Shown: positions 9,001 to 12,000 of the stretch, one piece after another
Layout of the letters: each line of letters starts with the position of its first letter
Numbering within the stretch: the first letter of the stretch is position 1
Program-made: the position numbers
Assembly: GCA_021825805.1 (NCBI GenBank)
Contig: JAKAGF010000002.1
Span: 1 to 33,771, forward strand
Reading direction: 5' to 3'
DNA length: 33,771 nucleotides
Source of the DNA: Nitrospirota bacterium
GTDB taxonomy: Bacteria > Nitrospirota > Thermodesulfovibrionia > Thermodesulfovibrionales > UBA6898

Positions 9001-12000
9001 CTGGTCGGCGAGGAGCGCGTCGATAGCGCACTCCTGCTCCACGTTCTTCGGGCCGATGCCGAGGATAAAACGCTGCCGCCTGATGAGCTGCATGCGGTCG
9101 TCTCCATAGACGCGGAAAATCTTGTCGCCTGTTTTCAGATACCGCACCGACCGTATCCCGTTGGGCGACTCCTCGCCCTCTGATACGTTCCCGTATTTTC
9201 TGAAGACCGTTGTCTTGTCCGTAAGATAGTCCTGCGTCGGAAGCCCAAGCGCGTCCGCCTTGATCCGCACGGAGGTATCCTTTGAGACAAGGATCACCGG
9301 CTTGACGGCCCTGCCCCCGTTTCGGGCCAGGGTTATGGCTGCAGAGATGATCCTGTTGTCATTCGACTCTTTCAGGAGTTTCACCTCCTGGTCCATCATG
9401 ACCTTCAGTGCCCCGCCGCTCGGCAGGGAGACCCCTGCGGAGAGGTTGCCGGCCTCCCTGAAGGAATCGATCAGGCGCAGCGCGTGGCGGGCGGAAAACG
9501 GGATCTCCCCGTTGCCCTTCTTGAGATTGTCCAATTCCTCGATCACGGTAATGGGAAGGACAATATCGTTATCCTGAAAATGGAGGACCGCCTCGGGGTC
9601 GTGGATGAGAACATTGGTATCAAGCACAAAGGTCTTTTTCATCTGGCGCCTCACGGATGGATTTTGGTTATTATAGCAAAAACGCATCTTCTCCCTGTTC
9701 CTTACAATCAAAATGTCTTTTGAAATGTTTCACATACATATCAGCGAAGGCGCTGAAAATGTATGTCATGAAGGCACGGTGACCGACCTCCCGGAGACTT
9801 GCAGATTTTTGATTATAGTTTAGGATATACTTAATCAATAACCTATGAAGCTTTACGGTATCCTCACTGTCATATTTTGCCTCTCGCTTCTCTGCGGCGC
9901 GGGAAATGCGCCAGGCACGGAGACAGGACCTGAGGCAGGGAAGATCGCGCCTTCTTTTACGCTCAAGGATGTCGGCGGCAAGGATGTCTCCCTCTCCTTC
10001 TACAGGGGAAAGGTCGTGCTGCTGAATTTCTGGGCAACGTGGTGCCCGTCCTGCAAGGACGAAATGGTCCCCTTTAATAATATGTATGCAGCCCTAAAGG
10101 ACAAAGGGTTTGTTGTCCTGGCGGTCTCGGTCGATCCTTCGCTTCGTCCGCTGAAGTCTTTTGCCTCTGAAAAGGGGCTTGCCTTTCCGGTCCTGTGGGA
10201 CAAGGACAAGGAGGTCTATTTCGACCTCTACGCGGTCCTCGGCCTTCCGATCACCTTTCTCATCGACCGAAACGGCGTCATAACGGAGAAGATCATCGGA
10301 GACCGGGACTGGTCTTCTCCTGAAATGAAGAACAAGATACAATCCCTCATCAACAGGAAGTGATACATGAATAGGTTTATCGGCTTTGCGGTCGTCGCGG
10401 CGCTTGCCGCCGTTGGATGCTCTTCCACGTTCCTCGTGAGCAAGAACGGGCAGGCGTATTTCCTGGGAAGCGATGCGGCTGCGGCCCGCAGGCTCCTCTG
10501 CGACTCAGGGGATTTGAAAAAGATATTGGCCGAGACCAGCCTGCCCGAGCAGACAAAGGGCGATCTCCTTCGCTACTCCTGCTCCGGCGATGGTTCACGG
10601 GAAAAGGTAAAGCAGGTATTCGCGGCCATGACACCCGAACAGCGGAAGGACCTCAGGACCGCGTTCAAGAACAATGACTACGATATAAACTATGTCCACT
10701 GCTGAGACCCTGTAAACACCTCAGCCGGTCGGCTGTAGAAGAAAAAAAACAAGGCCTTCATCACAGTGGTGAGCGCGTTCATCTCGTCCTTCTTCCTCCC
10801 TGTTGTCATCTGTCCGGTTGTCAGTCTCCATGATACTGTTCCACTGTCTTGCCGAATTGATATCCCGGACAACGCTTTAATATCTCTGAGAAAATCGTGT
10901 ATACTCTGTTCATGGTCTAATAGGTTTTCCCGACTTCTATTATCAAATAAATATAAAAAACAGGCCATATGTCTAAATATTTTTACCGGACACTATTGGG
11001 TTTAATTATATCGTAAAAACAATGTGGTCACCCTTAAAGGCAGGGAAGAGATAGTGTGTTATAATAAAAGACTTATTTCAGCCGATGCGCTTGATCGTTA
11101 TTCCGGTGATCGCGCTGGTTGTTTTTGGCGCAGGCATCGGAAAAAGCATCAGGGGGTTCAAAAAGTCCCTGCCCGAGGAGAGCAAACCTGTGCCGGAAAC
11201 TGACAGGCAATACTGACGATGGAACAAAAAAAACCGAGCAGCGTTATACAGAAGCGCCTGAAGGGGGAATTTTTCGTATCCATTGATTTTGACGGGACCG
11301 TAACCGACGCTGATATTACCGATGCGCTCATAAAGGAATTTGCCGGGCCCGGCTGGGAAGAAGCTGAGAGGTTATGGGAGGCCGGCATCATAGGTTCCAG
11401 GGAATGCCTTTTTCGCCAGATGTCGCTCATAGATGCTCCGATGGAAAGGATTATGGAGCATCTGAAAAATTTTTCAGCGAACAAGACCTTCGCGGATTTT
11501 GTCAGATTATTGAGACGGCTCGGCGTGCCCTTCTGTATCATCAGTGACGGTTTCAAGGTCATTATAGACAGACTGTTGTCTGATGCCGGATTGTGTGGAG
11601 TGCCGGTCTGTGCAAACGAGTTGATCGCTGATGAAAACGGACTTAAAGCTGTTTTTCCACATGCGGTCGGGCATTGCACTTCAGGTCTTTGCAAATGCGG
11701 GATTGCGAGTGAGAAAAGCAACGGACTTCCTGTCATACATATTGGCGACGGCAGGAGCGATTTCTGTCTTGCGGAAAAGGCGGCGTATGTTTTTTCAAAG
11801 GGCAGGCTGACCGATTTCTGTAACAGCAGGGGCATATGCCATACCCCTTTCGATGATTTCACTGTAATCGGCCAAAACCTGATGGCCCTGAGGATGATGA
11901 AGGAACCCCTTATCGCAGCCGGCACAAAAGACCCTCAAAAGGCATATAGCGATTTGAGATTGGAAATATGAAATCCAAAGAATTAACAGCAGAAGACCTT

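What a model noticed while it worked through the whole genome (the two positions that open the first line are those of the whole stretch)
9845..10738. New selenoprotein family: envelope lipoprotein with C-terminal Cys-Sec tail, paired with a TlpA-like redoxin
g00371, called as a 112-aa hypothetical lipoprotein, reads through UGA to ...INYVHC-U-DPVNTSAGRL and has a GGTC-loop SECIS; it follows a CxxC redoxin gene. It is likely a periplasm-facing selenoprotein whose Cys-Sec tail is reduced by the co-encoded TlpA/ResA-type thioredoxin, a two-gene envelope redox module. The family is in no selenoprotein catalogue checked.
Evidence so far: 18 of 121 genomes of the class match. All 19 full-length copies read stop at TGA right after Cys or Cys-x, each with a hairpin within 45 nt (GGTC loop in 12), often behind the true stop (C-U-G-stop, C-U-GG-stop); the redoxin gene is adjacent in 18 of 21 loci; its WxxWCxxC motif is kept. 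63 hits among representatives, many ending at this Cys, some with Cys-Cys forms; lipobox Cys18 and Cys45/Cys72 conserved. No NCBIfam hit, incl. SaoC, at E 0.01 and no Pfam hit below E 0.06. Model pLDDT 85, helical domain.
(Added by a program. Inside this text positions count along the whole contig: contig position 1 is position 1 of the stretch shown here. "Call 12" and the like, gene names such as g00115 and contig names such as C1 are that model's own, and its searches are not shown. The text may have been shortened before it was handed on; [...] marks where a part breaks off. The agent that wrote the report below was given it as the finding of a first reader that could run no searches.)

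Follow-up and report, generated by a model that had tools for sequence, protein, structure and literature searches.

The report
Selenium-tipped envelope lipoprotein with thioredoxin partner
This small bacterial lipoprotein gene stops at a UGA codon that is very likely read as selenocysteine, and it sits beside a thioredoxin-like gene whose product is predicted to dock on it and likely keeps its selenium tip reduced; the family was in no selenoprotein list we could check.

Summary
Observation confirmed and strengthened. ORF 10367-10702 ends Cys112-TGA, followed 21 nt later by a GGTC-loop hairpin. Readthrough gives 123 aa with U113. All 88 of 88 short-tailed relatives with DNA stop at TGA (genome background 54%). 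83 of 88 have a G-loop hairpin, against 0 of 10 Cys-Cys or long-tail paralogues. The stem covaries, and two natural Cys forms keep the same post-UGA tail. The genome has SelA, SelB, UGA-type SelD and about ten known-family UGA genes; tRNA-Sec was not found in this assembly. The TlpA-like gene lies directly upstream of 60 of 70 copies. A complex model supports binding (0.62, best control 0.01; mark reached by 116 of 157 solved and 2 of 215 mismatched pairs), but the tail is not among the confident contacts. No Pfam, NCBIfam or PDB match, and no entry in a 119-family 2026 catalogue. Likely mechanism: CcdA-type electrons pass through TlpA to the Sec tail, which reduces or binds a small envelope substrate, most likely oxidised sulfur. 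That last step is inferred from a DUF3373 porin neighbour and MccSep co-occurrence. Readthrough, redox activity and substrate are untested.

The parts
9845..10363 (+). TlpA/ResA-like redoxin, 172 aa, N-terminal hydrophobic signal, CxxC at Cys67/Cys70; segment K122-L132 (KEVYFDLYAVL) is the modelled docking surface
   Evidence: PF00578, PF08534 over cut-off; ResA, TlpA, StoA models all under cut-off
10367..10738 (+). Selenolipoprotein gene: 123 aa with U113 if UGA is read through; gene callers stop at 112 aa
10367..10420 (+). Lipoprotein signal peptide ending in lipobox A-V-G-Cys18
   Evidence: sequence; Cys18 invariant in A1 and at 90% or more in A2; lipidation inferred
10499..10582 (+). Cys45 to Cys72, invariant pair, likely a structural disulfide
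   Evidence: the only invariant columns in the 35-sequence distant alignment; bond itself not measured
10700..10705 (+). Cys112 codon and in-frame TGA (Sec113)
   Evidence: TGA in 88 of 88 short-tailed copies; Cys at this place in L112 and P0124
10722..10735 (+). SECIS-like hairpin, 5-bp stem, GGTC loop, 21 nt after the UGA, inside the readthrough tail
   Evidence: same loop type in the genome's FdhA, DsbA-like and FmdB UGA genes
10706..10738 (+). Ten-residue tail after Sec and the true stop TAG
   Evidence: second stops across the family are mixed, 33 TGA, 30 TAA, 25 TAG of 88
552..1598 (+). SelD with its own in-frame TGA at 591 (context: Sec machinery in the same window)

Best explanation
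This gene has a UGA after its last cysteine and a conserved hairpin behind it, so it very likely makes a selenocysteine-tipped lipoprotein, predicted to be anchored in the cell envelope and to dock on the thioredoxin-like protein encoded just upstream, which likely keeps the selenium tip reduced so that it can attack an oxidised small molecule, most likely a sulfur species. Step 1 (shown in sequence, inferred in the cell): SelB reads the GGTC hairpin and U113 is inserted. Step 2 (inferred): the protein is lipidated at Cys18; a small alpha/beta domain braced by Cys45-Cys72 acts as a scaffold. Step 3 (modelled): helix 90-102 (R93, K94, R97) docks on the F126-D127 segment of the redoxin, just before the conserved Pro135 that lies by the CxxC in thioredoxin folds (recalled). 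The last strand (D106, I107) then leads the flexible Cys-Sec tail toward that site. Step 4 (inferred): a CcdA/DsbD-type membrane protein reduces the redoxin, which reduces the oxidised tail. Step 5 (weakest): the selenolate reacts with polysulfide, sulfane sulfur or another oxidant that enters through the DUF3373 porin often encoded upstream. My odds: Sec insertion 0.95; direct redoxin partner 0.75; tail recycled by the redoxin 0.6; sulfur species as main substrate, given that, about 0.45.
For: TGA in 88 of 88 short-tailed copies against 1119 of 2083 long-frame stops in this genome. Hairpin in 83 of 88 against 0 of 6 Cys-Cys and 0 of 4 long-tail copies. Stem pairs 3-6 are 94% paired in 64 hairpins, against 67% in shuffles (maximum 73%) and 16-48% when slid. 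Tandem paralogues in L112 read YLPC-U-GDQINTTSGRM and YLPC-C-GDQIDDTSGRM; P0124 is a second Cys form with such a tail. SelA, SelB and UGA-type SelD are in the genome. SelA is in 44 of 49 family genomes; the other five show SelB or SelD. The redoxin is directly upstream of 60 of 70 Sec-type copies with 700 nt or more upstream, and of 0 of 7 such Sec-less copies. Complex score 0.62, best of 3 controls 0.01; the mark was reached by 116 of 157 solved and 2 of 215 mismatched pairs; runs agree in at least 54% of contacts; partner pLDDT at least 75. D127-R97 ranks 6th and D127-R93 22nd of 13,160 cross-chain column pairs. A new genome picked by its redoxin alone (L151) carried porin, redoxin and lipoprotein ending C-U-G-G-stop with a hairpin. 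Two DsbD/CcdA-type genes are in the genome. DUF3373 in 33 of 109 loci. MccSep in 39 of 49 family genomes against 81 of 148 other SelA genomes. Precedent: ScsB to TlpA to envelope peroxiredoxin PprX (PMC3322552, passages).
Against: tRNA-Sec was not found in this assembly, though it was found in 5 of 5 relatives. The window's hairpin alone is not significant. In the complex model neither Cys112 nor the CxxC is among the confident contacts, and Sec and the tail were not in the model. No paralogous redoxin was run as a control, and the tool warns that close cousins pass too. The interface covariation is essentially one clade switch (42 against 12 loci), came from the same alignments the model used, and many modelled contacts rank low. 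Four of five new partner-like redoxins have no lipoprotein next to them (L150, L152, L154, L165). Nine of 70 Sec-type copies have no redoxin in the locus, and one more has it nearby but not adjacent. The Cys before Sec is missing in L065 and the spacing varies, so a vicinal Se-S bond is not universal. In this genome the porin gene is on another contig. Ten of 49 family genomes lack MccSep, and kin are not independent.
Confidence: 0.58

Rival explanations
1. Selenolipoprotein that binds or hands on a soft metal or metalloid (Cu, Hg, As); the redoxin only keeps the Cys-Sec site free for metal, as TlpA does for ScoI and CoxB.
For: CU and CC motifs are read as heavy-metal sites in the SAO system (bioRxiv 2022.07.06.499078, passages). 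TlpA reduces ScoI and CoxB before copper loading (PMC6669012, passages). An ArsR/SmtB gene over the metalloregulator cut-off lies upstream in 4 of 15 long loci. Cys-Cys forms arise on at least 3 branches.
Against: No metal transporter family came up among the recurring neighbours that I annotated; a molybdate-binding gene was seen once (L141). The ArsR has two conserved Cys and hits sulfur-sensing BigR and TsoR models only under their cut-offs, so it does not point to metal alone. The mer-like cluster in the window is 18 kb away and was not seen in relatives' loci.
Confidence: 0.2
2. Selenolipoprotein that acts as an assembly or repair factor for envelope proteins (DUF3373 porin, multiheme cytochromes), resolving their cysteine adducts together with the redoxin instead of treating a small molecule.
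For: Porin directly upstream in many loci; 8-9-heme cytochrome genes next to the cluster in 3 of 15 long loci. ResA-type redoxins serve cytochrome c maturation (established knowledge). Partner-like redoxins stay next to the porin after the lipoprotein is gone (L152).
Against: The two porins counted have one Cys each. No cytochrome c biogenesis genes recurred among neighbours. The pair travels without porin or cytochrome in about half of the loci (33 of 62), including this window.
Confidence: 0.12
3. Real selenoprotein, but not a functional partner of the redoxin; the two share an operon for regulation only.
For: Redoxins of the partner type occur alone (4 of 5 new cases). Some Sec-type copies have no redoxin nearby (9 of 70).
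Against: Gaps between the two genes are mostly under 50 nt across two classes. Passing complex model. Matching clade-specific changes at the modelled interface.
Confidence: 0.07
4. UGA is the true stop, and the hairpin is a terminator, an RNA-stability element or a repeat.
For: TGA is the commonest stop here (54%; 16 of 21 after Cys). tRNA-Sec was not found in the assembly. The hairpin often lies behind a second stop, and the tail is variable (0-13 aa).
Against: 88 of 88 TGA while the second stop is mixed. The hairpin is absent behind the stop of all 10 Sec-less paralogues. Cys replaces UGA in frame with the same tail (L112, P0124). The window's hairpin is followed by A, not T, and was not called a terminator on either strand; a separate G+C hairpin follows in many loci. 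GGTC hairpins are no genome repeat (30 copies, like other loops).
Confidence: 0.03

Closest known systems
SaoC, Cys-Cys-COOH (seleno)lipoprotein (NF040734; Haft and Gwadz, bioRxiv 2022.07.06.499078, passages)
   Same: Small lipoprotein of unknown fold with a terminal CC or CU; UGA followed by a G-loop hairpin; missed by gene callers; its operon also holds a thioredoxin-like protein (SaoT).
   Different: No hit to the SaoC model. SaoC averages 158 aa, is Sec in 3 of 52, and lies in a nine-gene ABC-transporter locus. Here Sec is the rule (88 of 98), a 0-13 residue tail follows, and the neighbour is an exported TlpA with Cys-only CxxC.
KCU-star/DUF466 selenoprotein (NF033934)
   Same: Small protein ending Cys-Sec with Cys-Cys homologues, encoded beside a transporter (passage).
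   Different: No hit; next to CstA-type pyruvate transporters; no redoxin partner described in the passage read.
ScsB-TlpA-PprX envelope peroxide pathway of Caulobacter (PMC3322552, passages) and TlpA-ScoI/CoxB of Bradyrhizobium (PMC6669012, passages; PDB 4txo listed)
   Same: An exported TlpA passes electrons from a membrane DsbD-family protein to a specific envelope partner with reactive thiols.
   Different: PprX and ScoI have thioredoxin-like folds and Cys only. This partner has no thioredoxin fold, no significant PDB match and a terminal Sec.
MccSep/ExtKL periplasmic polysulfide reductase (NF040886; bioRxiv 2025.11.18.688581, passages)
   Same: Exported selenoprotein of Desulfobacterota and Thermodesulfovibrionia; present in this genome and in 39 of 49 family genomes.
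   Different: Pentaheme enzyme, not homologous, not encoded nearby; any link is by co-occurrence only.
C-terminal Cys-Sec arm of mammalian thioredoxin reductase (recalled, no call)
   Same: Flexible terminal Cys-Sec; C-U-G-stop endings occur in this family.
   Different: There the arm reduces thioredoxin and is fed by FAD in the same protein; here there is no flavin domain and the flow is likely from redoxin to arm.

Membership tests
Bacterial selenoproteins | Universal TGA at the site in at least ten examples (Haft and Gwadz criteria) | tested here: met
   88 of 88 short-tailed copies, class defined by tail length and not by codon; 99 unique hits less one frameshifted copy
Bacterial selenoproteins | Cys aligned to the UGA in homologues, with similarity running past it | tested here: met
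   L112 tandem pair and P0124; 6 Cys-Cys loci and 13 Cys-Cys database proteins. Part of the tail similarity is forced by the hairpin it encodes.
Bacterial selenoproteins | bSECIS: loop 3-9 nt, stem 4-16 bp, G in first two loop places, 16-37 nt from UGA, MFE at most -7.5 (PMC13188914 section 5) | tested here: met
   Window: loop 4, stem 5 (+2 after a bulge), GG, 21 nt, -9.0. Family: 83 of 88 with a looser -5 kcal cut on the bare stem; covariation.
Bacterial selenoproteins | Host has SelA, SelB, SelD | tested here: met
   44 of 49 family genomes with SelA
Bacterial selenoproteins | Host has tRNA-Sec | tested here: inconclusive
   Not found in this 253-contig assembly with 39 tRNAs; over cut-off in 5 of 5 relatives
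Bacterial selenoproteins | Selenium found in the protein | not testable with these tools
   needs MS or 75Se
SaoC (NF040734) | Score over the family model's cut-off | tested here: not met
   no hit at E 1 for the 112-aa and readthrough forms and 4 relatives, nor for 19 further relatives at E 0.05-0.1
SaoC (NF040734) | Lies in the nine-gene SAO locus | tested here: not met
   no SAO genes among recurring neighbours or in the long loci annotated
KCU-star/DUF466 (NF033934) | Model hit and CstA neighbour | tested here: not met
Bacterial lipoprotein | Signal peptide with lipobox Cys | tested here: met
   AVG-Cys18; conserved; lipidation and membrane side not tested
TlpA/ResA-like redoxin (partner gene) | Redoxin domain, CxxC, export signal | tested here: met
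   PF08534 and PF00578 over cut-off; C67, C70, P135 invariant in 54 partners; signal read from sequence
ResA, TlpA or StoA equivalogs (partner gene) | Score over the curated cut-off | tested here: not met
   122.5 of 170, 91.7 of 230, 67 of 210 bits
Any solved fold | Significant structural match | tested here: inconclusive
   Foldseek best E 0.13; VIA-align best Z 4.4, rmsd 3.5, 77 aligned

The most novel reading that the evidence does not exclude
Porin, dedicated TlpA and a selenium-tipped lipoprotein form an envelope sulfur-capture module: the Sec arm takes up polysulfide or sulfane sulfur at the porin's inner mouth and reduces it or hands it on to periplasmic enzymes such as MccSep. That would be a candidate for the missing delivery step in sulfur respiration and disproportionation, carried by a non-thioredoxin fold.
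Probability: 0.2. Interest if true: 0.88.

Novelty: new variant of a known kind. Interest (0 to 1): 0.7.

Why it matters
It adds an uncatalogued selenoprotein family with unusually clean genomic evidence. Gene callers cut it at the Cys, and methods that need homology past the UGA tend to miss such ends. It occurs in about a quarter of the Sec-using genomes sampled from this phylum (44 of 192), with homologues in named sulfur-cycling thermophiles. Most catalogued bacterial selenoproteins have a thioredoxin-like fold (PMC13188914). This one does not and appears to be the client of one, with a modelled interface that names residues to mutate. The MccSep paper states that how sulfur species reach that periplasmic enzyme is unknown; this module is a testable candidate. 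Natural Sec, Cys-Cys and Sec-less paralogues in single genomes also give a ready series for asking what selenium adds.

Tried and rejected
tRNA-Sec in this genome: Rfam model (only 150 of 313 candidates scored), ARAGORN at default and lower thresholds, motif scans, a scan of the selB locus, and blastn with five relatives' genes gave nothing. Rfam scan of 9500-11300: no SECIS family match; five weak rows far below cut-off. Fold searches: no clear match in PDB by Foldseek, VIA-align or profile; ESM Atlas best 0.78, below the trusted level. Terminator and repeat readings of the hairpin: rejected. A one-residue insertion before Pro135 as a unique mark of partner redoxins: all 54 partners have it and two own paralogues lack it, but some non-partners have it too, so it is not diagnostic. 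Partner redoxins as one clade: not resolved (7 changes). The tree of the lipoprotein is a quick tree with many open forks. DNA for the Thermodesulfobacteria-type members could not be fetched, so their Sec status is open; a viral-contig scan with the distant alignment did not run. Earlier findings of this scan: none by sequence or words. G262 (E 7.5e-4, internal stop) was dropped from the 50 matching genomes, and L117 (frameshift) from the 99 unique copies. Literature searches that did not show this family.
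Full report
What is there. The window holds a redoxin gene (9845-10363, 172 aa, FWATWCPSC) and, 3 nt later, a lipoprotein gene from 10367. The second frame ends Cys112-TGA; read with TGA=U it runs on as U-DPVNTSAGRL to TAG at 10736-10738. A 5-bp hairpin with a GGTC loop starts its loop 21 nt after the UGA; the 40-nt fold is -9.0 kcal/mol, which 31 of 200 shuffles match. The redoxin scores over the Pfam cut-offs for AhpC-TSA and Redoxin and under the NCBIfam cut-offs for ResA, TlpA and StoA. The lipoprotein hits nothing in Pfam at E 0.01 or NCBIfam at E 1. 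Named near relatives are Nitrospirota records.

Sec machinery. The genome has SelA and SelB and a SelD with an in-frame TGA, in this very window. A scan for in-frame TGA with a hairpin gave 104 loose candidates. Among them and I recognised by motif two FdhA, a DsbA-like, two DsbC/G-like, a rhodanese, a MoeB-like and an FmdB gene (labels recalled from motifs); the redoxin-family gene on C13 (peroxiredoxin-like) and MccSep came from family searches. FdhA (C6), the DsbA-like gene (C30) and FmdB (C61) use GGTC-type loops at a similar distance. tRNA-Sec was not found in the assembly. It was found in 5 of 5 relatives, and this assembly has 253 contigs and only 39 tRNAs, so a gap is likely but not shown.

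Readthrough evidence from relatives. A 30-sequence profile matched 50 of 401 genomes of the phylum and 46 metagenome loci. Across loci L014-L122 there were 116 hits, 113 with a stop in view, 99 unique; one frameshifted copy was dropped. Sorted by tail alone, 88 are short-tailed, 6 Cys-Cys and 4 long-tailed. All 88 stop at TGA; the other ten stop at TGA 6, TAA 2, TAG 2. The genome background is 1119 TGA of 2083 long-frame stops, and 16 of 21 after Cys. After readthrough the next stop is mixed: 33 TGA, 30 TAA, 25 TAG. A G-loop hairpin of -5 kcal or better lies 16-34 nt behind the UGA in 83 of 88, mostly at 20-21 nt, and in 0 of the 10 others; GGTC occurs in 73 of 88. Stem pairs 3-6 switch among T-A, C-G, A-T and G-C and are 94% paired in 64 distinct hairpins, against 67% in 2000 shuffles (maximum 73%) and 16-48% when slid; shuffles ignore kinship. 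L112 holds three tandem copies, two of which read YLPC-U-GDQINTTSGRM and YLPC-C-GDQIDDTSGRM; P0124 is another Cys form with such a tail. On a quick tree the four Cys-Cys loci included need 3 changes, and starred branches force 3. SelA was found in 192 of 401 genomes and in 44 of 49 family genomes (G262 dropped). The five others have SelB plus UGA-SelD (G322), SelB plus broken SelA pieces (G212), UGA-SelD (G111, G215) or a partial SelD (G076, 78% complete). Together these meet the criteria of Haft and Gwadz (passages) and the bSECIS model (PMC13188914 section 5).

Anatomy. The model (pLDDT 81) has a beta-hairpin at 21-32, five helices and a last strand at 106-110. Cys45 and Cys72 are the only invariant columns in a 35-sequence distant alignment, which suggests a structural disulfide (inference). 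In a model of the Cys-Cys form P0124 the segment after residue 110 has low confidence and no regular structure; this fits a flexible arm but may also reflect thin alignment. No solved fold matches clearly. The place of Sec is steadier than the Cys before it: C-U dominates, but C-x-U, C-x-x-U and S-U occur. The residue after the lipobox Cys is mostly Ser, Ala or Thr; by the E. coli rule (recalled) that points to the outer membrane, untested in this phylum. Distant homologues are named in Thermosulfurimonas, Thermodesulfatator and Thermosulfuriphilus; they end in C or one residue short of it, and I could not read their DNA.

The partner. A redoxin is directly upstream of 60 of 70 Sec-type copies with enough flank, and of 0 of 7 Sec-less copies. 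A complex model of the two soluble domains, each with a 54-row alignment, scored 0.62 against a best control of 0.01; the mark was reached by 116 of 157 solved and 2 of 215 mismatched pairs, the runs share at least 54% of contacts, and partner pLDDT is at least 75. The confident contacts join redoxin K122-L132, P98 and P36 to lipoprotein 82-97, D106, I107 and 20-23. Cys112 and the CxxC are not among them, Sec and the tail were absent, and no paralogue control was possible. In 42 of 54 pairs the redoxin has D127 and the lipoprotein mostly R97; in the other 12 the redoxin has K, R or E and the lipoprotein K or M there. D127-R97 ranks 6th of 13,160 column pairs, but this is one clade switch and uses the model's own alignments. 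As an outside test I fetched 20 further redoxin hits from a search of 141 genomes. Fifteen rows (14 of these plus this genome's C252) formed a separate group and one was unplaced. Five looked like partners by tree, motif or gene order. One of those (L151) had porin, redoxin and a lipoprotein ending C-U-G-G-stop with a hairpin; four had no lipoprotein. So the lipoprotein nearly always has the redoxin, but not the reverse, as expected for a client. Two DsbD/CcdA-type genes could supply electrons.

What it acts on. A DUF3373 gene recurs next to the pair: 33 of 109 loci, 29 of 62 with a redoxin and 1 kb upstream, 9 of 15 long loci. PMC4827864 lists DUF3373 under a putative 18-strand outer-membrane pore family (passage). 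A two-Cys ArsR lies upstream in 4 of 15 long loci and an 8-9-heme cytochrome in 3 (part was cut). One locus has TusA and DsrE2 divergent from the pair (L141), and one lone redoxin follows a rhodanese that ends at TGA (L165). MccSep, a periplasmic polysulfide reductase whose authors call the delivery route unknown (passages), is in 39 of 49 family genomes against 81 of 148 other SelA genomes, and in 20 of 21 against 24 of 36 within family f25; kinship and assembly quality are not controlled. A DUF3373 protein appears in a proteome table under thiosulfate disproportionation in PMC13490349; I saw the row, not the table head. These hints favour sulfur over metal or protein repair, modestly. In this genome the porin gene is on another contig.

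Comparison and novelty. It works like the TlpA-client pairs ScsB-TlpA-PprX and TlpA-ScoI (passages) and looks like SaoC in its terminal CU/CC, but fails SaoC membership by model and locus. Table 1 of PMC13188914 (119 families; abstract, sections 5 and 6, and parts 1-2 of 3 of section 7 read) has no entry that fits, and NCBIfam of June 2026 gives no hit for the window protein or 23 relatives, apart from weak rows far under cut-off. Word searches in BSepDB, deep-Sep and SelCysML main texts found no Nitrospira or lipoprotein passage; their supplements and databases were not read. Haft and Tolstoy 2025 was not held, and Deng et al. 2026, which screened 44,000 groundwater genomes and reports unvalidated candidates, did not turn up; either could list this family.

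Verdict. A real, very likely uncatalogued selenoprotein family with a probable dedicated redoxin partner; a new variant of a known kind. Interest 0.7. The sulfur-capture reading has probability about 0.2 and would merit 0.88.

Noticed in passing
window 552-1598 (+): SelD with in-frame TGA at 591 (CAG-U-AAK); plain ORF calling starts it too late, at 627.
   Followed up: yes
window 28557-31699 (+): Mercury-resistance-like cluster: MerR-like, an 88-aa CxxC protein, MerT-like, MerP-like, a 76-aa membrane protein and MerA (over cut-off). No in-frame UGA was looked for beyond the listed ORFs.
   Followed up: partly
G000 C128, minus strand, TGA at 20880: Gene with an N-terminal C-U motif (KNTAC-U-PS), a GGTG-loop hairpin, Cys-rich domains and a second TGA near its end (GAT-U-PSG); family not determined.
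   Followed up: partly
G000 C61:2106 (+): FmdB-like zinc-ribbon gene with two UGA (GGG-U-GVSSC-U) and a GGTC hairpin 20 nt behind the first; used as internal control.
   Followed up: yes
G000 C116:22130-23290 (+): MccSep/ExtKL homologue with one TGA.
   Followed up: partly
L055, L060, L063, L073; P0034, P0043, P0048, P0049, P0136: Sec-less paralogues with a long aromatic tail ending in a Cys motif; the database proteins also gain a Cys in the beta-hairpin, which suggests a new disulfide. The four loci lie in genomes that also carry a Sec copy and have no adjacent redoxin.
   Followed up: partly
P0076, P0089, P0090, P0099, P0102 against P0084, P0104, P0142, P0146; P0063, P0065, P0070 against P0059: Distant members end one residue before the place where relatives have Cys (YG-stop against YG-C; ADG/ADS-stop against ADA-C), possibly further Sec/Cys pairs without a first Cys; no DNA available.
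   Followed up: no
L165:103-378 (G169): Rhodanese ending FYCRGVG-TGA about 500 nt upstream of a partner-like redoxin that lacks the lipoprotein; possible second selenoprotein client.
   Followed up: partly
L133, L134, L136, L137, L078: ArsR/SmtB regulators with two conserved Cys ([AD][EF][IF]CK near the start and [IC][QE]AC near the end) next to the porin or the pair; inducer unknown.
   Followed up: partly
L132:8761-9240 and homologues in L133, L134, L138, L146, L150, L154: A 160-aa protein with no Pfam or NCBIfam hit recurs divergent from the porin-redoxin-lipoprotein cluster in family f3.
   Followed up: no
window 8133-8312 (+): 59-aa ORF with a C-x-N-E-G-K motif and no Pfam or NCBIfam hit, next to the PhoH/PIN gene.
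   Followed up: no
window 21660-26899 (+): HerA-like, NurA-like, DNA methylase and DUF488 genes in a row.
   Followed up: no
G076 C59 (L017): Sec-type copy in a family where 0 of 11 genomes showed SelA; the bin is 78% complete with 5% contamination, so misbinning or transfer is possible.
   Followed up: partly
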